A DNA stretch of 64,000 nucleotides from Catajapyx aquilonaris (lineage: Eukaryota). The position numbers were made by a program, and so were the translations under genes. The notes beneath the pieces were generated by a model, which was not told where the DNA came from, did not search any database, and saw only the letters and a list, made by a program, of their open reading frames with translations. Each line of letters starts with the position of its first letter. Position 1 is the stretch's first letter. Positions 25,501 through 57,221 of the stretch are shown here, in pieces. The stretch is taken from NCBI GenBank assembly GCA_000934665.2, contig KZ537982.1, positions 1 to 64,000 on the forward strand, given 5' to 3'.

Positions 25501-28500
25501 AAGTTAACTACATAGCATTGCACAATTTAATATCACCGAGCAGTATTAATTAGGCATAATACCAAAAGTACTTTTTGTCCCAAAGTTGCCTCAATACGCC
25601 ATATGATCATTATACAGTAACGAGACAATCACATTGAGCCAGATACAACAAAGGCCAATTCATTTTGAACCGAACAAGTCCGCGTTTGAAGGTCAATGTG
25701 GAACTAATTAGCGAAGCCTATTCTATATTGAATGGGTACTACCCTTGTCCCATGTAATGAGGAAAATCCGCTGGCGCATTAAATATTTAGCTCATGAGAG
25801 CAGGCTGCAGATTTCAAAACAGAACCATTGAAATATGGGGGCCTTTTGGGAGCAAAATTTCGTGCACTTTTTTTCTACGTGCCGTTATTTGTTATGGAAC
25901 ACCAGGCAATATACGGGTTTTTTTTCGGACTTTGAGAAAAGCCAGGCTAAAAATTATCCGCTTTTCTCACTATCTAATTTACGAGGAAACAGGTCAACCT
26001 CGCTACAAGTGCACGCTTCAAAAGCCACATTGAAATGCGGCGGCACGTTCACAGGCCGATTTTTTTTCCAAGTCGGATGATGTGAAAAACCGAAAAAACC
26101 TTACACAACAACAGTGGTTATGTATACTACAGTGTGTTCCAATTAATTTCCTCAGTATTGTTAATTGCGCTAAGCTATGTCCTGAATTGGGCTGGGAGGG
26201 ACGTCCACAAATTCTAGTCCCACCTTTGACCTCTTCCTTTGCATTTTCGGGAGCCAACAACCCTCTCAAGAGATGATTACCATACTTCTGGCTGACGCGG
26301 TGCTTATGCGCTATTTCAAGTCCTAACCGAGCCGAGTTCCGCGGATTTCATATTCTGTTTATGAGAGCGGCACAATGGGCCCTCCAAGCGGCAAATCGGT
26401 GTCCGTGGCCACGGACGAGCTGTGCTAACAATGCGCAATGTCCATGTTTTATGTAAGTTATCTCATTATACTTGAGGATGGTCGAAGATTAAGCTGGTAG
26501 ATGTAATCTAATGAGTCCATTGTCCATGATTGAGCGTTGTACGTGGGCGTTACTGGTCCAATGGTTGTAACAGGGGCGTATGTAATACATGTGCCCCGTT
26601 TTTGGCAGAAATCGGCATTGTGACGACCCCGGGGCCGCCCCGGGGCCAACCTGCGATCAGAGTCCCAGACTTACTCGACTCTGGATCCTAACTCCACTCT
26701 CCCCTGGCCAAAGCTAGGGAAGCATTGCGCATGCCCGTCCTCCCGTCACATGACCGGTAGGGGGCGGGTTCTCACAACATTCCAAATGAGCAACAGTCAT
26801 ATTGGATGAGCTGTCCGCACATGTTTACTCTATAGATTTGCATACGCCCCATTTCAAAGCTTCAGTTCAAGCCCGTCTAACTTAGCAAACAGAACCAAGC
26901 CCATATAATCCACTACATATTCCAGGGTATGTTGCGCAATATCGACCTTAAACACTGTAGGCCTAACCATGTCTGAAACCGGTCGCTCTTCCACAGGATT
27001 TATCCTTTCAAAGGAAAGTCTTTGAAAAGGAGGAATAATGCGCTGAATAGGCTCCATCTTCTTCTAGGACTACAGCAGGGAGTCCTCTTCGCATCATCCT
27101 GTTCACCTGAATTTTTAGGAGAAAAAAAAGCACAATATTCATCTTCTACGACGCAAAAATTTCTAAGTTCTAAACAAAAGAAGATTGCGATCTGGTTTCC
27201 TTCATAAGGTTTTTCGACATCATGGATATATTCCTATAGAATTTTTACTCAAGTTTTCGTATATGCTCTCAGGAGAAATCACGTGACTAATTTGGAGGAC
27301 TGTGATGTGAAATATTTCAGATTGCTTTTCAAGACTTGGGGTGAGGATGAAAGGCGTCCTAATTAAGAATAACTGGATATCCTGGAGGGAAGTAAGTTTT
27401 AGGAAGGCGAAGTTTGGGGAGAACCTTTTATACATGTTTCTTGAGTAAAGGGCACGTTAAAAATAAGCATGTCGGAATTTTTTTTCGGTGTTCAGAAAAT
27501 GTTCCCTAAGTGCCAAGTTTGCACTCGAGGCGAATTGTAGTTTGTCGTGTATCTGTGACGCACTTTAGAGCAATCGGAAGTTGTAGCGTGCAAATGTTTG
27601 TTTTCTGCTTCTAGGTTAAGACGCATTTTACTGATGTATCTACGTCGTTTGCTTTATAGGCGGACATCGTCCTCTTGTCTTTTTTAAAAGGAAAGGGTAC
27701 ATGCTTTTCTTGAAGAGTCCGAGATGATGGCAAACTAATGAAATTGCTCTCCCGGGAGATTTTCCGCCCCCTTCACCCCCCTTCTACCAATCTCTTCATG
27801 AGGTCGTCCTATAGATTATGCCTTAAAACAGGGGCTTATAATAGCAGCCATGGGGCCCATAACTTTAAGAAAATCTATACATCGACAAGTATTATTGTTT
27901 TCAATGCTACAAATTATCGGACGAAACCATTAGCCATACCCGCTAATAACAACCTTACATAAAGCACTTTGATGCGCCTGAATATACGCCATTTAAGTTT
28001 GGGTCTGTGATTAATTACTGCTCACTAATCTTGCAGCCAAAGTTGTTCCCAAGAGGAACGGGAGTGAAATTAATGGCCTTCAAAGTAAAACTAGAGAGAT
28101 TCAATACTTGCTACAGTGTTGGTGCAGCATAATGTCAGACATTAAGTTGTGATGGTCTGTGTTTCAGGTACAGCAAGGAAAGTTGCGCTGGAGACCGATC
28201 CCCTTTCGAGGGATCGTGTTGCGGCTCCAGCGCTGTTTCATCCGAGTCCGGAGGTGACGTCACAACGTTTCGAGTGGCTATGTTGGGAGCTCCTGGAGTT
28301 GGAAAGACGGCCCTGGTGTCACAGTTCATGACTTCAGAGTACATGAATACCTATGACGTCTCTCTAGGTACCACTCCCATATTTGTTCTACTCTATAACA
28401 GTATTCAAGTTCAAATTTTTTACATATTTTTATAATTTTTTTTTTGTAATATCGCCTTCAGACTAATGATTCTCGCTACTAAGGTGTGCTACATCACATG

Positions 28501-36999: not shown

Positions 37000-39900
37000 T
37001 CACTCCCATAAGTCTTTTTCTGCTTCATCGGGTTCAAGCTGCTGGAGCAGGTGGTCAATATTGGGGGTGGGCTGCTGATTGGACTTCAGTGAGTAAAGGA
37101 CCAGATTGTTGCTCCCACCTCCACCTCCTTCACTGGTGGATGGCTCATCTGGAAGCCACAGCTTCTCTGGGACATTCACATCCCACTTGGTCCCTTTTGG
37201 ACAATAAGTTATTATTTATATTTACTACAGCTTGAACATGTGCTTGGGAAAATGTACAGTACTGCACTAACCTGCTCTCTGATAAAAGAGTATGTAAGCA
37301 TTACTGTACTCATCCTCCTGTGGAGGTTGAGGATGGACTACGTCATCATTGAAGCTGTGCCATTCTGAAGAAACTGGGTGCTTTGCATATGATGTGTAGT
37401 GACCAGCAGATGCACCTGAAGGGCATTAATAACATGCAGGGTATTATTGAATATGCATTAATAACAATTCTCTCTGCATTTGTGAAGACACATGGAGTAG
37501 TGTAAAAAGGCCACCTATAACTTACATTATTGCACAAAAATAAGTAACAAACATGCATCTGATCTACTTTCCAGTTTTTGATATTTTGGAATGAGAATAA
37601 AAGACTGGCGAATACCCTCAACATTCACACTAAAATCTTCCAACTAATACAGTCCCACCATGACCCAGAGTACTTTTACCAAACCCTTCAGACAGGCCTG
37701 TGGAACTCTGGGTTCCAGAAGAATATCAGTCGACAATTGCGGCTCTAGAGCAATAGAGTATCAGTATCTATTTCACGCTTACACTTCTACAGTCAGTTAC
37801 TCTTGCTCAGCATTTCCAATCATGTTTCAACTTACTGCAGTCAACGGAAGGAAAAGTAACACTTACCTCCATAGTGACAGACACAGGCGTAGAGGTCATA
37901 CTCTGGAGCAGAGACTGGGGAGGTGGGCCCAGACAGGAAGGAAGAAACATCTAGTCCAGAGACAGGGAAGACGAGCTTGTTGTCCAGCTTGGTGGAAAAG
38001 CACTCGTGGAACACAAACCGCTTGAGGTAGACAATGAGGAAGTCGGGATAGCGCCACACAGTCAGGGTCTTGGTAGCACACTGGTTGCGCTCACACATGG
38101 GGCAGTACCAGGGATTGTGCTCATCCAGAGTCTCACTCTCACTGAAAGCTCCCAGGCAGTCATAGATGGTCAGAGGACCATTTGGCCTCAACTGGGACAT
38201 TGACTCATCATGATCTACCCCATTGGCCTCCTCCCAGTTCAACTTGGCCATCTCCTTGAAGCGCATGGCTAGTGTGTCCCCTGGCTGAAGCACCACCTGT
38301 CCAACGGCGGGGACAGCACAGCCCCTGCAATGGCTGGTGTACATGCAGCGGGAGCAGTGCAATCCCTGACCATCCACTAGTAGGACATCGTAAGATTCCA
38401 TATGTGGGAGACGCTCTCTGAGGACCTGGTGAAAAGTGACTGCAGGCAGCTGGGATGGCAGACACAGAAGGGACGGGTGGCCAAACAGCTTCATCCCTTT
38501 CTGGTTGTTGTTCCCATCACCCTCGGTGTCCAGGCGGAAAACCACACTCACATGCAAAGTTCTGTAAGCAAATGGTACGACATTGCGACTGATAATACAA
38601 AAAACTAGTATCTCATCCCTCATGTACTAGGGACATGAGTAGTACTAGGCGATATATCTAGTTACATGTATGCTAATGATCTCACAACTAACCTGATCTG
38701 TGGCTCTACATGCTTGAGCCTATCCAGCTTGACAAAGTCTTCCTTGGCTCTGACAACCTGGCCACACATGGGGCACTGAAGCCTGTCACCCCCACTCCCA
38801 CTGCTCCCACCAGCTGTGCTACTGCCACCCCCACCGCTGTAATGCTTGCAGGAGATGTCAATGCAGTTCTCGCAAAGCAGACAGCTGCACTGCACATGCC
38901 GCAGTAAGTCTGAGTCGGCCATCTCTTCCAAGCAGATTGCGCAGCTCTTCCACCCATCACTCCTTTCATCCGCTGCTGGGACTCCCGCCGAGTCAGGCAG
39001 TGGGGCCCCCACAGGACCAAGGGGAATGGGTCCTCCATCAAGATCCATGGGAGCGAGATCAATTGTATCAGTGCTAGACGACACCTCACATCCTCTAGGT
39101 GCTTGTAACGGAATAGGAAGTGCCAGAGGAAGAGGTGGGGGCAAGGGAGGGCATGAAACTTCAGATGCATTGGGCGAAATTTCTCCTGAGCTGCTACTAC
39201 TGCTGGGTGGAGGGGGTCTCACTTCAAATGCGTATATGGTCCGGTGTGTATCATTCACATGGCGCAAAGACAGGTTCTCATTCTGCAAACAAAGTGTAAG
39301 GTACCATAAATCTAGTTTAATGCTTTTTCTTCATTATGCTTTTTGCTTAAATTATTCATACATGATGCAGGGGAGTAACTGGGTATAGTGGAGGAAAGTA
39401 ATTTTAAGTGACTATAAATTCTGAATGCAACAGACTGAAGTTATTGTAGTAATAATGGTTACATTAATACAGTTAAGCTGTGCACAAACTTACAAAGAGG
39501 CAATATTGGCATCAACAGTTGCTATGTTCACTTTTGAGAGGGATCATATCAATTTCTGGCAACTCATAACTTCCTCCTGCTCGCATGTGTATTTAAGATG
39601 GTTTGGTCGAACACGGAGAGGGCATCTGCAGCAAATCAGGTGCTTTCTACCAATAGGCCATCAAGAGTGATTCCACTCCACTGCTTAGTTTGTGCCAAGG
39701 TTACTGTTTGTTTGCAACAGGCCACAGGAAAATAACGCATATGAAAAAAAAACACAGCAGAAACATGTGCCTTACCAGTGCCTTTGCAATGTGGTTATCC
39801 AGCACCTCTGTGATGACAACGTGACTCCCTTCCCCAATTCCAACCATAGCTGCAATCCTCTCCTGCACTTTTCTTACTCTGTCTTCTCGGTTCATTGTCA

Positions 39901-42616
39901 GCAGGTATCGAACAGGGTGCCTATGACTTGCTGGCACAAATGTTACACCTGCCAAAAACACAGAATTTCAAATACGTGTATTAGTTCTTCAGCCCAAACA
40001 GACTAAATCCATGATGAATGCCGTAACAAATACTCACATAGCTGCCGCTCCATGGCGCGTGGAAGAGGGACAGACAGGTACATGAAGGGCTCATAGGTGA
40101 CAGATACATGTCGGCAAGCAGAGCAGACGACAGTGCTCTTGAACTGTCCCTGGAAAGTCTCCACTACAATGCTCTTGTTGAGTGCCACATGCTCTGCCCA
40201 GTGCCTGTCGGCCTCCACCTTCTCCTTCAGTGCCGCTGCATCCTCTTCTGTGAACATCACTCCTTCACCACCAACTGCACCCCCTTCCCCCTCACTGCCC
40301 ATCAGACGAGCCCTCTTATTGTTGCACCCTCTTTCAGCCTCAGCCACTGCAACCAAATTAGTGTCCTTGATCCGTTTTGTGCCAGATGCCTCCACCTTCC
40401 CCGATGATTCTTCCTCTGGTACAAAGCCAAATGCACCCAGGTTGAGGTTTTCAACAGCGTCTCTAGGTCGTGCCACTTCCAAGCGAGGAAACTTTTCTGA
40501 GTCAAACACCAATTCGTTGTTTGCTGGCTGTTCCTGTCCAGGGGAAGCCAGCACATTCACATTGGATGTCTTTGCATCTTTGAAAATGTCTTCAAGCCCC
40601 TTGATTGCTGGTGGGTTACTGGAAGAAGCACTGCTCCCAAGAGCAGCCAGGAGCTCGTTCTTCTCCAGTCCCACTGATGGAGGTGGAGGACTCTTGTCAA
40701 GATCTGAGTCATCTCCCAGCATCATCAAGGTGGAAGCTGGCTCACAGGAGGAAGAGGTACGCATGTCCTCTGGGATGGGGTGCATGCGGTATGGAGCATT
40801 GCTACCAGACGCATGTGAGTCTGAGCTACTGTGTGGAGACGATGCTTGGCTGGACCTAGAGAACAGTAGTGAGTGTATGTCAATGACAAATCTGTTGACT
40901 ATGTATAACTGATTATTCACAAGAGAGTCCTTATTAAAAAACACCAGACATGGTTTTGCAGAAGAAGAAAGCGCCTACTGCAATTCAGTGTCTACTCTGG
41001 TTCATTTGGCCTGTAACTCACCTTGAGCTCTCTGAGAGCGTGGCAACTTGCACGGTCCCAGAAACCATCTTCTCTCCTTCATCCTTCTCATCCTCCTCAT
41101 CCTCATCCACTAGAGGAGGAAGACCCTCGTCACCATTTTCTCCTCCACCCCCCATATCCCCTTCACTGCTGCAGCATCCTCCCGTCTCTTTCTTCCCTCC
41201 TGCAGCATTCAGCTGCTCATGTAATGTGTCAAGCAATAGTGCTATGAACTCCTGGCAATCATGCTGCCGGTAGTCCTTGAACTGTGGGTGAATGGCCCCC
41301 AGCACTCGTTTGAACTCATTTGGCTGCAGCACCCCAAAGTGGCCTGACCACACACGACGCAACAGAAGAGCAAACTGGGTGGTCAGATTCTCTGTGGCTT
41401 CCTCCAGCTCAGGGGGAAGAGGACGATCAAGGAAGTATTCTGCTAGGGAGGGCGTGCTCAACAAACACTGAAGGCCTGCAGCCATGAAGCACGTGTTGCC
41501 TAGATTGCGTATGCCTAGAAAGAAGAATGCCAAGTTGTACATACTTATGTCAAGAATTGACAGGTATTTTGGCATAATTTACGCTAACATTAATAATTAC
41601 CCTGCTAGGGGATTCTGATAACAGAAGAACAATGGAGGCCCCTAAGAAAAGCCATGCAAACACACATAGGACTTGTTAAATACATTGAAAAATCCTCTGC
41701 CTTATCCAGGGATCAAACTCGGTACCCAGAAGTAGCACAATCATGTCCAAAATCACTACGCCACTGAGCCATCCTTCCATAATTGATGGCATTAATGTAA
41801 CGGGTGTAAGATATGATAAATGATGGGGTGACCATGAGTGCGGTGTAATGCCACAAGGTTAGACAGCTCCCTTTCACATCCATATAAATCCAGTGATGGC
41901 ATGCAGTGATGTTTCATAAACAAGCCTATGGAGGCAATGTACATACCGCACACGCCAGGTTTGATGGCAAGTGGGTCCTTCGTCATGAGCTCTCCAGCTT
42001 CATGAACAGGACTGTTGAAAGGGGCTGAATCCCCTCCTCCAACCACCAACTGACTCTCCAGGCAGGGCATCTCATCATAGACTCCTCCATCTGAGTGAGC
42101 CAATGGCAAAGGATATTCCAACATGGGCGGAGAGTGGAAAGACATCTCCTGGTCATTGTCTGCCCCCACACCAGTCCATGTGTTGGCCACTCCCATTTCT
42201 CCCTCTGATTCCAAATCCTCTGGGGCAGACCTGTCTGCAGCCTGGACCTCCAAGCTTGGAGGACCCCCCTCCCCTTCCCCTTCCTCTTCCTCGTCCAAGT
42301 CCTCTGCCTGGGTCTCGATGCTAGGGGGACCTTGGTCCTCTGCCTCCAATGCAGGGGGAGAGCCACTGGGCGAGTTGAAAGATGCAAGGGAGTATGAAGC
42401 CACCAAAATGGGAGGACCTGCGTAGAGGTAATACAAAATTAGTGAAAAGTCAGGTTATACCTTGATTTCATATAAAGTTTTAGTGTAATAATTTTATCCT
42501 GCAAGCAAGAAACTATACTCACCAAGGAGAAATGAATGTGAACCCTCAATATCGTCACTTTCTTGCTCGTCAGTAGAGGACCCAAGTTGGGAAGGCAAAG
42601 TCTCGTCACTATCCAT
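37000..42616 (-). CDS. Ubiquitin carboxyl-terminal hydrolase (USP/peptidase C19, USP4/15/19/32-like split domain) with internal RING-like finger; 9 exons, about 1223 aa
   Basis: Exons 42616-42523, 42417-41947, 41514-41022, 40855-40038, 39948-39776, 39282-38693, 38561-37867, 37415-37272 and 37193-37000 are all GT-AG and in phase (3672 nt). Motifs: Cys box GIRNLGNTCFMAAGLQCL, QHDCQEF, FQGQFKSTVVC..YLSVPLP, WYCPMC..LKRF, YDLYACVCHYGG, His box GHYTSY, WHSFNDD, AYILFY. Confidence 0.95.
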
Positions 42617-50727: not shown

Positions 50728-53692
50728 TTATCCTTCAGCAGAAAAGGGTATTGTTGTAGTCGCCTGCTGCATTACCTTAACGTAAATTACTGGGTCATCC
50801 TCAGCATTATTGCTATCTTCTGCACTCATAAAACAGTTTCCTGTACTAACAGATGTGTCATATTGATCAGGTGTGTCTTTCATTGGATTTTTGACCTCAT
50901 TTTGCTTGTGCTGGTCGTGAAATCTCATCAGGTGCACCTACAAACAACAAATAAGCACAATTAGAATTTTATGATAAGTAAAATTTAACTCACTGACATA
51001 CATTAAGTGTAGTGGAAGAGGAGAATTTTCTAGGGCATTTTGGGCATTTGACATAATTTTCTTGCCTGGCGTGGGTCAGCATGTGAGATTTCAAATAATG
51101 TGGCAGAGCAAATGATTTCTTGCACTTCTTGCAGGTGTAATCTTTTGTACCTGTTGGTATAAAACATGTAAAGAAAATCACGGTGTGAAGTGTCCACCAT
51201 TCAGACAAAAACATATGAGAATAGATTCATCTAAGCCTCTAAGGTATCCTACATGGGAGATTCACCATTTCAATATGAAATTCACTCAATATTCACTTGA
51301 TTGTTCAACCTCTCACTGTTATGCAAAGAAACTGGAATAAAACCTGACTTATAGGACTGACCTGAGTGAAGTTTCATATGCATTTGGAGTTTCTGCTTGT
51401 CCAAAAAATCTTTTCCACATGTTTCACATTTAAACCGCTCTCGAATGGCTTTATCTTCATGTACTCTCATGTGCTTGTTCTTCAAGTGGTCCAATCGTGC
51501 AAATGATTTACCGCAAGCAGGGCATACATGTCTGACAAGAAAGAGCAATGATTCAAGGGTCACTTACATACTGCATGCATTACAACACTCACTTCTTAAC
51601 TCCAGTATGAATGGTCATGTGCCTGTTCAGGTCTCTCAGTCGCACAAATTCTTTTGAGCAGGTCCCACACTTGTGTGGCTTTTCGCCAGTGTGCACTGTC
51701 ATGTGATCCGTGACATCTTTAGGGTAACGAAAAGCCTTCCCACACACCTCACACTGCAGTGGTCTCTCGCCTGTGTGAGTCATCATGTGCTGTCTCATGT
51801 TGTGCCTCTCAAGGAATGCTTTCCCACACACCTCACACTTGTGGCGTTTCTCTCCATGAACTCGGCAATGGCGCTCTAACTGATTCAAGTCATTGAATTC
51901 TTTCTTGCATTCCTTGCATGATACCTTCTGCTCCCATGAACTGGTCAGTTTAGTAACAGGTTGGATTAAAGATTCATTTTCTCGTTCAGGAGCCGATTCA
52001 TCCTGACAAATTTGTAGGTTAGCGTCGCTATCATCGGCAGAGTCAAACATGGTACTCAAGCCACCTTCATCTCTTACATCTAGAGACGATTCTAGTTCAA
52101 ACCTGCATCCAGCTGTGTCTGAATGTGATTCCATTAGAGACTGATCTCCATGAGGAGGATCAACAGTACCCACTGAATCCATTTCCATCCCAGAGAGAGA
52201 TGAAAATTCATCCGAAATGTTGATTGCGGCAGTACCAGGCATCAATTCAGGTTGCACTGCCCCATCTGAGAAGGTAAGTAGAGACTCTAAATTAATGTCT
52301 CTTTGTGCTGGGATTGAATCAGTGATAGTGACAGTTGGTGGCTGAGATGAAGAAGCAGCAGCAGATGAAGAGAGAATATTTCCCACTGCATCATCTAAAG
52401 TTCCATCAGGGGGCATGCTAAGGAGGTCAACTGCATTCTGAAGTGATTCTGAATCCATGCCAAGGTTGAGCATTGTCATCGAATTCATAGCACTAGACTT
52501 CTGTTGGGACGATTGCAGCTCTTCCAGAAGGCCAGAAACTGGCAGGAGTGACTCCAGTGTCTCGTGCATTGCATACTGGTGTACTTTAAGATCTTTCTTA
52601 TTGCAGCATCTGAAGTTGCACACTTTACACTCCAAAGTGACTTGCATCTGGAGGTGTAGAGTGTATGACAGCTGATCTGCCATCTCCATATTACAATGTC
52701 TGCACATGAACTGTGGCTTGGGCAGGACTGGTCGCTCGATCCTTTTGGCAGATTTTGTTCTCTGGTTTCCAGTTGCTTTAACAGTCTCTATCATCTGACG
52801 TTTGCCAGGTACCTGTGCCATGAAGTTGCTGACAGTATCCAACTTTCCAACTTCATCTTCCACAATTGCCTGAAGATTCCATGAGAGCGGAGAGTTCTCA
52901 GGCAGTTCACTAAGAGGTGGAATCACGTACACTTCATTGTTAGACTTCTTGTCATGGACCTGAATCACAGGCATCTCCATGCCATGCTTCTGCTTTAGGT
53001 GGCGCCTGAGGTCTTGGTGATGCCCATACCTGACTCCACAAACGCCGCAAATAAATCGTCTGAAGTCATGGTGTACCCTGAGGAGGTGTCTTATCAGGTT
53101 GCTTGTGACTGTGAAGGCAGTGTTGCAGACAGGGCACATCTGAGAAGATGAAGGGCTCTTGCTGTGGACATTTTGCTCATGCCTTGACAAAGCCTAGAAA
53201 TAAAAAAAAAGTGTTAACCACAGGTTTTTTCCCTTCTCCTCTGTCCTGTCCCATAAGCATAGAACAATGAGAAGTGAATCAGATTCATCTAGAACTGATG
53301 AAATAACTTGATGATAAAACTCACCTGCTTCCTTTTGAAAGTGACTCCACATTTCATGCACATGAATGGTCTTTCTCCAGTATGGGTCCTGATGTGAACT
53401 GCCATGGATGACTCGTTGGGGAACAGTAATTGACAGTGTGTGCACTTGAATCTCTTCCTAACCTTTTCTGGCTGGTGAAGTCTCATGTGGGACTTCACGT
53501 GAGATGCTGAATTGAGAGGCTTCCTACAGGTTGGGAGAGGGCACACATATTCCTTCTCGTGACTGGACATGTGGCTCTGAAGAAGGCGTTGGCCAGGAAA
53601 TACTTGACTGCACTTGTCACATGTCCATTGCTGGACGTTGCCTCCTGTGTGTACCAGAAGATGCCTGAAATAAAGTACTTAATTACTCTAGA

Positions 53693-53758
<66 letters not shown>

Positions 53759-56700
53759 TCTAGACATATTTAACCACTTAGCTTGCAGCTTCTGTTTTAT
53801 CACTTGACTTCTCTGACCACTTTTAAATTCTATGATGAAATACCAGTACTAAATATTAACTGTATTACTCTACTTACATATCTCTGTTCTTTTTTACTTT
53901 GAACTTCTGCAAGCAAATGTTGCAGCTGTAGGGCCTAGCAACCATCTCAGTCTCATGTGCCTTCTCCATGTGGCTGGCTTTGTGCCATGTCTGTGAAAAA
54001 GTCTTTCCGCAGATGTCACAGCCAATTACATCACTAAGATGCGTCTCAACGTGCTTGACAAATTCTATCTCTGAACCCATTACTTGCCGACAACTCCTAC
54101 ACTTGAGACTGCTCTTTGCCACGTGCTCATCCCTGTGACCAGTTTCAGCTCGTCTCAGGTGAATTTTGAAGTGCCTCTTTACGAGATCCAAAGATTTCAA
54201 ACGCTTACGACATATTGGGCATGCCCTTCTAGAGGGCACAGCAGGCGCTTCATCCCCTGACCCATCATGGTTGTCAGAAAGCACATCTTCTCTCTTAGAA
54301 TTTGTGGTAACAGCTGTGCACATGTGACTCAAACATTGAATCAAGGTGTCATCCCCACTACCAAGCATTAGGTACGAAAATAACAGCCTGTCCAACTCCG
54401 CTTCTCTCTTGTCTTCTGCTGATATCGCAACTATCAGCCTCTCCTTGTCACTCTTGTTGTGGTCTTTCAAGTGCAGCCACATTGTCAGATCTGTGTCAAA
54501 ACTCACTTGGCAGTTTGGAACCAAACAAGAACTGCTGAAATGCCTCTGTTGGTGAGATGCCATTACAGAATGGGTGCAGAATCTGGCCCCACATGTTTCG
54601 CATTGATGTGGCTTCTCTTCCATCAGGTGTGACTCTTGATGGTCCAGGAGGGCAATTTCCGTGAGGCAGAGGGCATTGCAGGTATGGCATGCAAAGGTTT
54701 TCTTGTGATTACTCAAGTGGCCCTGCAGATCAGCTTGACTACCAAACTCAGCGTAGCAGAGCTGGCATGTTAACTCAAGGTAGAGGATATTGTGGAAGAC
54801 AGCCAAGTGGTCCTTCAGAGTGTCTTGGAATACAAACAACTTGCTGCAGACCATACACTGCAATAAAAAAGTCACAGATCATAACAATATCCCCATAACA
54901 AGATCTTGTTGTCATTGTCTTTCATCAGTACACTCGAAATCACATAAGTGTGAACCTTTTTGGATATCCATACGCCCGAGGGGTTGGTGAGCTGTTGCGC
55001 CACAAAATTAGTCCCCGGTATCTATGGCTTTCTTGAAGAAACAGTGCTGGTACATGTAATTTGAATGCATACTTATCATGGGCAGCAGCTACACAAACTG
55101 CACATTTTGTTGTGAAGAGCGGTAGGGTACTACGTTCAGGTGGTTCACCAACCCCTCGGGAGTATGCATATCGAAAAAGGTTCACTCTTATGTGAATCGG
55201 AGAGTAAGTTGGTTCCACGTCTTACAACTCTTATAATTGCAATTTCTCTGAGGGTTGAAGTAGCAGCAAGATTGTCACTCACATGCAAGTGAGCAAAATT
55301 TTGAAACATTTGACAATGCTGAAAAATCCTTTACCACGACACAAAAGAAGTGCATCAGCCTCTAAGAACATGTATATTAGTGAACTATTAACAATGAGTT
55401 ACAGTAAAACTTCTATAAGTCGAATCTCCATGGGACCAGGAAAAAACTTTGAGTTATAGATGATTCGAGCTAGAGAAGTTTGGATTTTTAAAAGCACAGA
55501 ACTCTATAAGGAAGCCTACCTTTATATCCAGAGAAGAAAGGTGTTCAAAACTTAAAAATAACTGTCACTATCACAATTACAATGTTCCTTGTTGTTTTGT
55601 TGTAAAAAAATCTCCGTTATGGACATTTCCCTACTCTTAGATTCAAGGATTCAATTGTCACAATCGAGTCAAACACTTCTTTCGGTACGTCTGGTAGACG
55701 GAGATCAGGAAATTGAGCCTTTCTGTACATGTGACCTACCCTCGACCCTTCGGCTGGGAAATGAGAAAATTTTCCGTACTTCGCCAACATGAACTTCGAC
55801 TTAGGGAGGAGACTGAAAATGCATTGAAATCCCGTCGTAAGGCCCTGCCTGCACTTCGAGTTATAAATATTCGAGTTAGGGAAGTTTATTTCCTATTATT
55901 TTACATTGTGACCAACCAAGCTCCTAATTTTCACCGACTTATAGAGAACTTCGACTTAGGGAAGTTCGACTTATGGAAGTTTTACTGTATTAGTGAACTA
56001 TTAATAATTAGTTAATGTTACTGAAAAAAAGAGGCTACAGTACGACACGGCAATCTGATGTCATCATTTCTTACAGCGTTCATTTTTTGTTGACATTGTT
56101 TACTCATACTGTTGAGTGAGGGTATTTCCATGAAAACCTTGATGATGTCAGATCGTCGTATCGTTTTATGCACTGTAGGTATACCTAGATAGAAAAATAT
56201 TTTAACATGCTGTCTACATACCCTTTCCCTATTCAAAAACTTCCCATGCTCCATGGCAACATGCTTCTGCAGCTGCACAGTCGAGAGAAAAATGATTCCA
56301 CAGTCAGTGCATTTGAGGTTGTCCAGATCTGCAACCCTGGACTCAATCAGGCTCAGAGTGGTGGACAGCATAGAATCCTCACTTGACTTGCGCCATTCAC
56401 TCCTCCAATAGATCGAGGTGGGAGGTACCCGAAGTCCCTTCCCAGCTTCACCCTTTGGCTTGATGATATCCACGTGAACTGTCTTTTCTGTGGACACACT
56501 GTCAAAGGCCAGTGCTTCCACTGCCTCATGCAGCGAGATCTCTTCTTTGTCTGCATGTAACGACCCCAATTCCAGATCATCCAGTATGAGACCCTCGTCC
56601 TGGATACTCCCTGGAATCTGCAACACCACGTCCGCCAAGCTGAACTGGACACGTGCAGATTCCAACACTGAATTCTCACTGCTGGTCAGGACCTGGTCAC

Positions 56701-56851
56701 GTATCATAACCTCTTCTTCCTGAGGCGGTGCTGACACGTCATCCAGGAGGTCTGACGGAAGATCCGCCAGGGCAAGCATGTCATTGTCCTTGGCTGAGAA
56801 TGACGTGCATGGCTCCTGCCACACGAAATACTCATCTTCCTTCCCGTCCAT
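50728..56851 (-). CDS. Multi-C2H2 zinc-finger protein (about 26 fingers, acidic N-terminus); 8 exons, about 1371 aa
   Basis: Exons 56851-56222, 55318-55283 (36-nt microexon, less certain), 54857-53878, 53664-53325, 53193-51593, 51531-51362, 51150-51002 and 50937-50728 are phase-compatible (4116 nt). Repeated CxxC..HxxxH motifs with HTGERP/HTGEKP linkers, and several fingers are completed only across the splice junctions. Confidence 0.92.
53682..53767 (+). repeat. (ATT)n microsatellite flanked by a 14-bp direct repeat (probable tail-only retroposon insertion)
   Basis: attactctagacat at 53682-53695 and 53754-53767 brackets a pure ATT tract. Confidence 0.8.
55402..55987. mobile_element. pogo/Tigger-like MITE
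   Basis: TA|cagtaaaacttctataagtcgaa...ttcgacttatggaagttttactg|TA, with many internal ttcgactta/ttcgagtta repeats. Confidence 0.88.
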
Positions 56852-57221
56852 TGCAGACCACTGCTCTAATCTGCAAAATGCAACATTTATTCAATACTGT
56901 TCATTACCAGGTCATATTATGCAATGGATTACATGCACAGCCCTGCACGCAATGTTTTGCTTCCTGATGTTGTACCTATGCTTAGTTTAGTGTTCCTTCT
57001 CTTGCCGAAAAATCAGTATGCAGGAGGATAACCTCAAAATTAAAATCGCAAGGGCAGGAAACACATGAGAATAATTTTGGCCCGAAGCCAACTGCCACTC
57101 TGCCAGTGAGAGTGCGCCGTCGCCGCTCGAATTCACACTCTTTCCTACGCCGCCGCATGCGAAAAATACAGCAGAGTGTGCCGTCGCCACCGGAAAACCA
57201 TCAAAGTTGCTCAATGCTCAC

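What the first reader, a model, noticed from the sequence alone, without database searches (positions are those of the whole stretch)
38693..39282. RING-like finger embedded inside a USP deubiquitinase catalytic domain
Seen: between the Cys-box and His-box halves, after a ubiquitin-like-looking segment, exon 6 encodes CAICLEEMADSDLLRHVQCSCLLCENC..(Gly/Ser loop)..LQCPMC. That has the RING hallmarks C-x-I-C-L-E-E and a terminal CPxC. A second Cys cluster (CSRCMYTSHCRGC, similar to that of USP32) follows. The catalytic Cys, His and Asp motifs are intact. Known: USP19 carries a MYND finger in the comparable insertion, and RING domains recruit E2s. I do not recall a characterised USP with a RING here. 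Inference: a possible single-chain ubiquitin-editing enzyme with DUB plus E3 activity, conceptually like A20, or a RING used for dimerisation or substrate binding.
Basis: partly seen in the sequence, partly recalled or inferred. Interest (0 to 1): 0.75.

Follow-up and report, generated by a model that had tools for sequence, protein, structure and literature searches.

The report
RING finger inside a deubiquitinase gene
One exon of an animal ubiquitin-removing enzyme (USP) gene encodes a real RING-type zinc finger, the module that ubiquitin-adding enzymes use, and this unstudied combination is conserved from sponges to insects and sea urchins.

Summary
The minus-strand exon 38693-39282 has clean splice signals. 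It encodes the last strand of a ubiquitin-like domain, a Pro/Ser-rich linker and a Cys/His finger (core 38764-38943). The finger lies between the Cys box and the His box of an intact USP gene.

The finger is a RING:
- Its spacing is C-x2-C-x14-C-x-C-x2-C-x2-C-x29-C-x2-C.
- A family profile matches solved RING ligases (TRIM32 E 4.6e-7, RNF4, RNF13).
- AlphaFold2 gives pLDDT above 90 on the core.
- All 50 listed structural neighbours are RING, U-box or SP-RING domains.

Relatives with the same insert occur in hemimetabolous insects, a spider, molluscs, a nemertean, a sea urchin and sponges. All are unnamed or called "USP4/15-like". Eight literature searches found no description.

In 104 of 176 relatives the canonical fourth ligand is absent, while a His three residues before ligand 3 is universal. 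The Ile, Leu and Pro positions that contact an E2 are conserved. The activating "linchpin" residue is not; the window has Gly.

RING identity is about 0.9 likely. E2 docking, meaning coupled ligase and deubiquitinase action, is about 0.45 and untested. A non-catalytic binding or regulatory role is about 0.37.

The parts
38693..39282 (-). The exon in question (590 nt, phase 0 start, ends with 2 bases of a codon). It encodes the last strand of UBL-A, a Pro/Ser-rich linker, the RING finger and a short conserved tail (DFVKLD...).
   Evidence: Splice signals and translation. tblastn of three relatives covers 39288-38680.
38764..38943 (-). RING core, first to last zinc-ligand Cys. In P0001 numbering: C114, C117, (H129), C132, C134, C137, C140, C170, C173.
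   Evidence: Motif coordinates. AF2 pLDDT is above 90 on this core except the loop. RING matches.
38785..38838 (-). Gly/Ser-rich loop between the central helix and the last Cys pair. It is about 16 residues longer than in most relatives.
   Evidence: Low pLDDT (blocks 51 and 67). Compare with relatives.
39220..39282 (-). End of ubiquitin-like domain A (NENLSLRHVNDTHRTIYAFEV).
   Evidence: Aligns to ...LRYVNDxNRxIYAFE of relatives. The equivalent region of some relatives matches Pfam USP7_C2 weakly, below cut-off.
39776..39946 (-). Preceding exon, the main part of ubiquitin-like domain A (VTFVPAS...HIAKAL). The 5' boundary is approximate.
   Evidence: tblastn HSPs at 39946-39758. Donor GTAAGG after 39776.
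37865..38561 (-). Following exon: ubiquitin-like domain B with an embedded Cys knuckle, then the second half (D2) of the USP core. The 3' boundary is approximate.
   Evidence: tblastn. AF2 mean pLDDT 83.6 with a beta-beta-alpha-beta...beta-beta pattern in residues 1-101. Foldseek matches residues beyond about 110 to USP4/11/15/8/2 cores.
38318..38356 (-). Second Cys cluster CSRCMYTSHCRGC (C-x2-C-x5-C-x2-C).
   Evidence: Coordinates. C69, S70, R71, C72, C78, G80 and C81 are each present in 90% or more of the 61 rows of alignment A2.
41483..41506 (-). Cys box NLGNTCFM with the catalytic Cys.
   Evidence: Pfam UCH E 1.2e-25 on this exon ORF.
40102..40125 (-). First CxxC pair of the Fingers zinc ribbon (CSACRHVS), upstream of the insertion.
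   Evidence: Pfam UCH on this ORF is below cut-off (E 0.0012, 19.0 bits against 23.9).
38093..38110 (-). Second CxxC pair of the Fingers zinc ribbon (WYCPMC), downstream of the insertion.
   Evidence: W151, C153 and C156 are invariant in A2.
37342..37404 (-). His box GHYTSY and the FNDD Asp motif.
   Evidence: Pfam UCH E 4e-09 on this exon ORF.

Best explanation
Shown: the exon encodes a genuine RING-type cross-brace zinc finger. It sits on a roughly 90-residue flexible linker inside the insertion that splits the catalytic domain of a USP4/11/15-like deubiquitinase. The insertion lies between the two CxxC pairs of the Fingers zinc ribbon and holds a ubiquitin-like domain on each side of the RING. 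The gene belongs to an old, unnamed animal USP family found in sponges, a sea urchin, a nemertean, molluscs, a spider and hemimetabolous insects. Inferred mechanism: the RING keeps the hydrophobic Ile/Leu/Pro surface that RING ligases use to dock a ubiquitin-loaded E2. The protein would then couple ubiquitin attachment and removal in one chain. That could mean chain editing, chain trimming, or self-protection from autoubiquitination. Because the usual activating residue after the last Cys is not conserved, any ligase activity is likely weak on its own or dependent on other elements. In most relatives the canonical fourth zinc ligand is missing. The universally conserved His three residues before ligand 3 probably takes its place (inferred). 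Separate odds: RING identity about 0.9; E2 docking or E3 function about 0.45. The confidence given here is for the whole statement, mechanism included.
For: The window's spacing C-x2-C-x14-C-x-C-x2-C-x2-C-x29-C-x2-C fits the RING rule. A profile of 18 family fragments matches solved RING ligases over the whole finger: TRIM32 E 4.6e-7, RNF4 single domain 6.7e-6, RNF13 9.1e-6. All 60 rows shown are RING-bearing proteins by their molecule names and my recall. The window sequence alone gives RNF13 0.0098 and ZNRF1 0.012. AF2 with 88 rows gives a mean pLDDT of 76.5, with blocks 11-40 at 91-93, 41-50 at 83 and 71-80 at 92. Foldseek's best rows are TRIM25, TRAF6, RING1B/PCGF5 and TRIM21 at probability 0.97-0.98. 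In an all-against-48,161-chain search, all 50 rows shown are RING, U-box or SP-RING domains, with Z 4.7-6.8. Of 47 relatives scanned, 22 hit Pfam RING models at E<=1e-3, several over the full model, and 2 pass the curated cut-off. Two named relatives carry precomputed Pfam RING hits. Language-model neighbours are RING clusters at 0.93. Conservation: 176 of 179 keep the ligand pattern and 80 of 82 complete fingers end in CPxC. In the 88-row alignment, Ile after C1 is 83/88 (the rest Val), Leu after C2 is 84/88 and Glu is 85/88. The USP context is intact. The closest solved cores are USP15 (7.2e-72), USP4 and USP11.
Against: The window's own Pfam RING scores are below the curated cut-offs (zf-RING_UBOX 20.6 against 25.2). 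No Foldseek row reaches E<=0.001. All Z values are below 8, a range the tool warns can reflect a common small arrangement. The residue after the last Cys, the linchpin in many active RINGs (role recalled), is R in only 16 of 82, with G 13, S 12, N 10 and L 10. The window has G. The canonical fourth ligand is absent in 104 of 176 relatives. The rows of alignment A1 were preselected by a regex that requires the ligands, so its invariant columns are partly circular. One search is the less biased count. Ile and Pro could also be conserved for folding alone.
Confidence: 0.45

Rival explanations
1. The RING is real but non-catalytic. It would be a zinc-stabilised protein-interaction or regulatory module, comparable in role to the MYND finger of USP19 or the UBL insert of USP4 (both recalled). 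It would recruit substrates or partners, or dock back on the USP core to tune deubiquitinase activity.
For: No conserved linchpin residue. The canonical ligand 4 is lost in 104 of 176 relatives. The RING sits between two ubiquitin-like domains inside a DUB insertion where other USPs carry regulatory modules (recalled for USP4/USP19). Strongly conserved surface motifs such as W-x-S-C, CLEE and K-H-Y could equally mark an intramolecular or partner interface.
Against: The positions that contact an E2 in active RINGs (Ile after C1, Leu after C2, Pro after C7) are kept across sponges to insects. The best sequence matches are active ligases: RNF4, TRIM32, RNF13. As I recall, known non-ligase RINGs usually act as partners of an active RING.
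Confidence: 0.37
2. The RING mainly serves to dimerise the deubiquitinase, as RINGs do in RNF4 and TRIM proteins.
For: The best profile matches include dimeric RINGs, RNF4 and TRIM32 (their dimeric state is recalled). The model has short helices and strands flanking the core, at residues 77-91.
Against: Nothing positive was obtained. The conserved flank [DE]-F-[VI]-P-L is short and unlike TRIM four-helix flanks (inference).
Confidence: 0.1
3. It is a related cross-brace finger of another class (PHD-like or RINGv-like). The zinc set would be C,C / H,C / C,C / C,C, using the upstream His, and it would bind something other than an E2.
For: The universally conserved set has the spacing [H]-x2-[C]-x4-[C]-x2-[C]. 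That resembles PHD spacing between ligands 3 and 6 (PHD rule recalled). Slx1's RING, whose C4HC3 ligand type I recall, is among the top structural rows (Z 6.7).
Against: No PHD protein appears among the 60 profile matches shown or the 50 structural rows shown. Pfam hits are all RING-family models. The C4HC3 signature is absent.
Confidence: 0.05
4. It is a chance Cys-rich stretch or an annotation artefact, for example a retained intron or a mis-joined exon.
For: No RNA run holding this locus was available to confirm splicing.
Against: The frame is open with canonical splice sites and a consistent phase. The same insert sits at the same place in 16, 38 and 7 database proteins from many phyla. 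24 of the 25 hits of 700 aa or more that were scanned carry the USP domain.
Confidence: 0.02

Closest known systems
USP4 / USP11 / USP15 deubiquitinases
   Same: They are the closest solved catalytic cores (USP15 E 7.2e-72, USP4 2.3e-67, USP11 6.8e-66 with relative P0030; Foldseek). As I recall, their catalytic domain is likewise split between the two CxxC pairs of the Fingers by an insertion that contains a ubiquitin-like domain.
   Different: No DUSP domain was detected by Pfam in the window's N-terminal ORF or in the 24 USP-bearing relatives scanned. The insertion carries a RING plus a second ubiquitin-like domain with a CxxC-x5-CxxC knuckle. The family is a separate lineage with no vertebrate among the named hits.
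USP19 (MYND finger in the catalytic-domain insertion)
   Same: A USP with a zinc finger placed inside the catalytic-domain insertion. This is recalled; only a search listing mentioning MYND was seen.
   Different: The finger here matches RING models, not MYND. No Pfam zf-MYND hit was reported. MYND is a peptide-binding module, whereas RING is the E2-docking fold.
RING E3 ligases RNF4, TRIM32, RNF13
   Same: They share the fold and the overall ligand spacing. Ile after C1, Leu or Met after C2 and Pro after C7 are conserved. The N-terminal half, CAICLEE...L, reads like a RING-H2 ligase such as RNF13.
   Different: Ligand 4 is Cys in the window and absent in most relatives, with an invariant upstream His instead. 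There is no conserved linchpin Arg. The finger is embedded in a deubiquitinase rather than in a ligase scaffold.
A20 / TNFAIP3 ubiquitin-editing enzyme
   Same: It may work alike, with a deubiquitinase and a ligase element in one polypeptide. This is an analogy; A20's properties are recalled, and only review listings were seen.
   Different: There is no homology. A20 is an OTU protease with A20-type zinc fingers, while this is a USP with a RING. Ligase activity is untested here.

Membership tests
RING finger (cross-brace zinc finger) | Eight Cys/His ligands spaced C-x2-C-x(9-39)-C-x(1-3)-[HC]-x(2-3)-C-x2-C-x(4-48)-C-x2-C (rule recalled) | tested here: met
   The window has C-x2-C-x14-C-x-C-x2-C-x2-C-x29-C-x2-C. 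In 104 of 176 relatives the fourth position is not Cys or His.
RING finger (cross-brace zinc finger) | Score above Pfam's curated cut-off for a RING model | tested here: not met
   Window: zf-RING_UBOX 20.6 bits against 25.2, and zf-RING_2 15.8 against 27.3. Relatives P0044 (28.8 against 27.3) and P0045 (27.7 against 25.2) do pass. P0039 and P0042 carry precomputed RING hits.
RING finger (cross-brace zinc finger) | Significant profile similarity to solved RING domains over the whole finger | tested here: met
   Profile A3 against PDB: TRIM32 E 4.6e-7, RNF4 6.7e-6, RNF13 9.1e-6, aligned from C1 to C8.
RING finger (cross-brace zinc finger) | RING/U-box fold | tested here: met
   The AF2 core has pLDDT above 90. 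Foldseek's top rows are RING E3s at probability up to 0.98, but with E>=0.057. All 50 VIA rows are RING, U-box or SP-RING, Z 4.7-6.8. This is a prediction, not a solved structure.
RING finger (cross-brace zinc finger) | Binds two zinc ions | not testable with these tools
Needs metal analysis.
RING E3 ubiquitin ligase (functional class) | Conserved hydrophobic E2-contact residues (Ile/Val after C1, Leu/Met after C2, Pro after C7) | tested here: met
   I 83/88 (V 5), L 84/88 (M 4), P 88/88 in A1. CPxC in 80 of 82 fingers in the less biased count.
RING E3 ubiquitin ligase (functional class) | Linchpin Arg/Lys/Asn after the last zinc ligand | tested here: not met
   The window has Gly. In the family: R 16, N 10, H 2 of 82, the rest G, S, L, Q, T and others. 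As I recall, not all active RINGs have this residue.
RING E3 ubiquitin ligase (functional class) | E2 binding and ubiquitin transfer | not testable with these tools
USP deubiquitinase (peptidase C19) | Cys box, His box and Asp/Asn motif present, with a Pfam UCH match | tested here: met
   NLGNTCFM, GHYTSY and FNDD are present. UCH E 1.2e-25, 1.3e-13 and 4e-09 on exon ORFs.
USP4/11/15 subfamily | N-terminal DUSP domain | tested here: not met
   No Pfam DUSP hit on the window ORF 41792-42454 at E<=1, nor on the 24 USP-bearing relatives at E<=1e-3. The window's first exon was not identified, so an N-terminal part is unseen.
USP4/11/15 subfamily | Closest catalytic-core similarity, with a UBL inside the Fingers insertion | tested here: met
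   One search gives the core similarity. The UBL-like segments rest on the secondary-structure pattern and weak USP7_C2 hits. They were not confirmed by a separate fold search.
PHD finger | C4-H-C3 ligand signature | tested here: not met
   Ligand 5 is Cys in all 176. There is no PHD Pfam hit.
MYND finger (as in USP19) | Pfam zf-MYND match / C6HC pattern | tested here: not met
   No zf-MYND hit at E<=1 on the exon.

The most novel reading that the evidence does not exclude
This would be an ancestral animal ubiquitin-editing enzyme: a USP whose built-in RING recruits an E2, so one chain both writes and erases ubiquitin. It would use a non-canonical zinc set in which an upstream His replaces the classical fourth ligand. 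It is kept from sponges to insects and echinoderms, and no vertebrate, holometabolous insect or nematode appeared among the named hits, which would fit its having gone unstudied.
Probability: 0.35. Interest if true: 0.8.

Novelty: new variant of a known kind. Interest (0 to 1): 0.62.

Why it matters
Ligase-deubiquitinase pairs are a recurring theme in ubiquitin signalling, but they are nearly always separate proteins. A20 is the textbook single-chain exception, and it uses unrelated domains. A USP with a conserved, correctly folded RING would be a natural experiment in cis-coupled writing and erasing of ubiquitin. It can be tested with standard assays on any member. The shift of one zinc ligand to an upstream His would also add a variant to the RING ligand repertoire. 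If the RING proves non-catalytic, it is still a new regulatory insertion type for USP catalytic domains. The family is also a clear case of an old animal gene that none of the named hits places in a vertebrate, a fly or a nematode.

Tried and rejected
- **RING self-association.** Complex prediction with 2 copies plus 4 Zn gave "no answer" (score 0.00, 0.00), and the alignment was not used. This is no evidence either way.
- **RNA support for the exon.** The look-up of sequencing runs listed no RNA holder, only one DNA holder, X1.
- **Own genome.** Not held, so no E2 or ubiquitin gene of this organism could be fetched and no RING-E2 docking was run.
- **NCBIfam.** No hit on 4 proteins.
- **Earlier scan notes.** None found.
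- **Single-sequence PDB search.** The top row was a CLPX-like chaperone (E 0.006), aligned to the Gly/Ser loop and last CxxC. I rejected it as a low-complexity match.
- **Fold of UBL-B.** The Foldseek search with the 232-residue model was dominated by the USP D2 half. The beta-grasp call rests on the secondary-structure pattern only.
- **Literature.** Eight searches and passages of PMC11354881 and PMC5381560 gave nothing on a USP with a RING. Subscription journals and InterPro/UniProt architecture tables were not searchable.
- **Neighbouring genes.** A Ras-like exon and a C2H2 zinc-finger gene gave no functional link.
- **Loop as intron.** I considered that the Gly/Ser loop might hide an intron and rejected it. 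The frame stays open, and RING loop 2 tolerates 4-48 residues (recalled).
Full report
**What is in the sequence.**

The finding lies in a minus-strand, multi-exon animal gene. Exon 38693-39282 is preceded by a polypyrimidine tract and AG (TTTGTTTGCAG), and followed by GTTAGT. It joins in phase 0 to the previous exon, which ends ...HIAKAL at 39776 before GTAAGG. Its last two bases plus the first base of the next exon (start 38561, after TTACAG) make an Arg. The protein therefore reads ...EPQI-R-TLHVSVVFRLDTEGDG, which parallels relatives' ...KPTIRLLNVPVVFRLDTDGDG.

The exon's 196 residues (P0001) comprise:
- the end of a ubiquitin-like domain (NENLSLRHVNDTHRTIYAFEV);
- about 90 Pro/Ser-rich residues;
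- the finger, WKS-C-AI-C-LEEMADSDLLR-H-VQ-C-S-C-LL-C-EN-C-IDISCKHY-(Gly/Ser loop)-LQ-C-PM-C.

tblastn with three relatives lays out the rest of the gene: the Cys-box exon (about 41575-41186), a long exon (40608-40036), UBL-A (39946-39758), the RING exon, a large exon (38563-37865) and the His-box exon (37416-37234). Catalytic motifs are intact: NLGNTCFM at 41483-41506, GHYTSY at 37387-37404 and FNDD at 37342-37353. Pfam UCH matches four exon ORFs. The second cluster CSRCMYTSHCRGC is at 38318-38356.

**Is it a RING?**

*Sequence.* The window's spacing fits the RING rule, with Cys at the fourth ligand position. Alone, the exon scores below Pfam's curated cut-offs (zf-RING_UBOX E 4.7e-4, 20.6 bits against 25.2). 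Against PDB sequences it gives only marginal matches (RNF13 E 0.0098, ZNRF1 0.012).

A profile built from the window segment plus 17 short family fragments (A3) matches solved RING ligases across the whole finger. The values are TRIM32 E 4.6e-7, RNF4 6.7e-6 (4.1e-10 for a tandem construct) and RNF13 9.1e-6. By their molecule names and my recall, all 60 rows shown are RING-bearing proteins.

Of 47 relatives scanned with Pfam, 22 hit RING models at E<=1e-3, many over positions 2-43 of 44. Two exceed the curated cut-off. The Lineus and Diadema proteins carry precomputed Pfam RING hits. Language-model features place the segment next to RING clusters (0.93).

*Predicted fold.* AlphaFold2 with an 88-row alignment gives mean pLDDT 76.5 and pTM 0.62. 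The blocks for residues 11-40 score 91-93, 41-50 scores 83 and 71-80 scores 92; the Gly/Ser loop is low. The model shows the expected short strands and a central helix after the C-x2-C pair.

Foldseek finds no row at E<=0.001. Its best rows are nonetheless RING ligases (TRIM25, TRAF6, RING1B/PCGF5, TRIM21, RNF12, RAD18) at probability 0.9-0.98. An exhaustive comparison with 48,161 chains gives 39 chains at Z>=5 and none at Z>=8. All 50 rows shown are RING, U-box or SP-RING domains, for example Prp19 at 6.8, Slx1 at 6.7 and RNF4 at 6.0.

The tool warns that Z below 8 can reflect a common small arrangement. The fold evidence is therefore corroborative rather than decisive on its own. Together with the profile E-values, I put RING identity at about 0.9.

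**Relatives and conservation.**

- A word-index search with the exon found 16 longer proteins, all USPs.
- A search with the RING region of the Schistocerca protein found 38.
- An exhaustive HMMER search of 1.84 billion representatives found 147 at E<=1e-3. Of the 25 hits of 700 aa or more that I scanned, 24 carry the USP domain. Many shorter hits are truncated gene models that run into introns.

Named sources are Orthoptera, Blattodea, Phasmatodea, Odonata, Hemiptera, Thysanoptera, a louse, a spider, two molluscs, the nemertean Lineus, the sea urchin Diadema and, from a third search, the sponge Ephydatia. None has a functional name.

No vertebrate, holometabolous insect or nematode appears among the named hits. 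The window's own species is unknown. Its RING segment is most like polyneopteran and odonate proteins (56-63% identity).

In a count that requires only the N-terminal C-x2-C-[LMQ]-[EDH] motif, 176 of 179 sequences keep H-x(1-4)-C-x(3-6)-C-x2-C. Two of the three misses are regex artefacts and one is a mis-spliced model. Of 82 complete fingers, 80 end in CPxC.

**An unusual ligand set.**

The canonical fourth ligand (His in RNF4; Cys in the window, insects and the spider) is absent in 104 of 176 relatives. These read C-G-G, C-G-A, C-A-G or C-T-A in molluscs, the nemertean, the urchin and sponges. A His three residues before ligand 3 is present in all 176 (H-x2-C in 165).

A second His at the end of the central helix (K-H-Y) is present in 78 of 88 rows, but it is missing in some lineages. 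I infer that the upstream His completes the second zinc site in most of the family. Arthropod-type sequences such as the window's have either gained the canonical Cys or keep both.

**Context within the USP.**

The closest solved catalytic cores are USP15, USP4 and USP11 (E 7.2e-72 to 6.8e-66). The insertion lies between the two CxxC pairs of the Fingers zinc ribbon (CSACRHVS at 40102-40125 and WYCPMC at 38093-38110). As I recall, this is the site where USP4/11/15 carry a UBL and USP19 a MYND finger.

Here the insertion reads UBL-A, linker, RING, UBL-B. The exon after the RING folds with mean pLDDT 83.6. Its first 101 residues have a beta-beta-alpha-beta...beta-beta pattern interrupted by the nearly invariant CSRC-x5-C-x-GC knuckle. 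The fold search with that model was dominated by the USP half, so the beta-grasp assignment rests on the pattern alone. No DUSP domain was detected.

**How it most likely works.**

*Shown:* an intact USP carries an inserted, flexibly tethered RING whose zinc ligands and several surface positions have been kept across animal phyla.

*Inferred:* as I recall from RNF4 and Cbl complexes, active RINGs dock the E2 with the residue after C1 (Ile), the residue after C2 (Leu or Met) and the Pro after C7. Here these are I 83/88, L 84/88 and P 88/88. The CAICLEE stretch reads like RING-H2 ligases such as RNF13. This favours E2 docking, and hence a coupled ligase/deubiquitinase that could edit or trim chains or protect itself from autoubiquitination.

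*Against:* the residue after the last Cys, which in many RINGs primes E2~Ub, is not conserved (R 16, G 13, S 12, N 10, L 10 of 82). It is Gly in the window. No E2 could be tested.

I put E2 docking at about 0.45, a non-catalytic binding or regulatory role at about 0.37, dimerisation as the main role at about 0.1, and another finger class or an artefact at less than 0.1 together.

**Novelty.**

Eight full-text searches and passages of two evolutionary papers (PMC11354881; PMC5381560) gave no description of a USP with a RING insert. The second of these papers is organised around human DUBs and so would not list a family lacking a human member.

Both domains are well known, and some database entries already carry automatic RING hits. 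This is therefore a new variant of a known kind (an undescribed USP architecture and family), not a new kind of system.

**Limits.**

- No expression data were found.
- Most hits have no taxon names.
- No model coordinates were available.
- The window's Pfam RING score is below cut-off.
- The rows of alignment A1 were preselected for the ligand pattern.
- The likeness of the second Cys cluster to USP32 and the 1223-aa gene model were not checked.

Noticed in passing
window 38318-38356 (-), within exon 37865-38561: A CSRC-x5-C-x-GC knuckle (four Cys) is embedded in what looks like a second ubiquitin-like domain after the RING. C69, S70, R71, C72, C78, G80 and C81 are each present in 90% or more of 61 relatives, and pLDDT is high. 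It may be a third zinc site in the insertion.
   Followed up: partly
window about 40036-40608 (-): The long, otherwise variable region between the Cys box and the Fingers holds short conserved motifs shared across phyla: K-T-x-N-x-N-V-L, D-S-E-K-F and K-R-x-K...E-K-N in the consensus. They look like linear binding or localisation motifs.
   Followed up: no
window 38785-38838 (-): The window's RING loop 2 carries a Gly/Ser-rich insertion of about 16 residues (GGGGSSTAGGSSGSGG) that is absent from nearly all relatives. It caused a spurious top PDB match to a CLPX-like protein.
   Followed up: partly
proteins P0046-P0184: Many database relatives are truncated gene models. They read through an intron just after C-x2-C-L-E (ending ...CLEV...) or, in the sponge-like group, just after C-P-V. 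Intron positions inside the RING therefore differ between lineages, and the window has no intron there.
   Followed up: no
proteins P0124 and P0155 (P0124): Two very long proteins (2435 and 3186 aa) matched the first half of the RING at E 6e-6 and 1e-4, each in five stretches. P0124 carries repeated DUF5575, ZSWIM-type RNaseH-like and FAR1 domains and no USP domain. P0155 was not scanned.
   Followed up: no
window 51285-56890 (-): Several long ORFs hold C2H2 zinc fingers (for example 51592-53193, zf-C2H2 E 1.1e-22). This looks like a neighbouring multi-finger gene (101 of 140 ORFs of 85 aa or more were scanned).
   Followed up: no
window 28133-28432 (+): An ORF gives a weak Ras-family match to the start of the GTPase model (E 9e-05). 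It is probably one exon of a small-GTPase gene.
   Followed up: no
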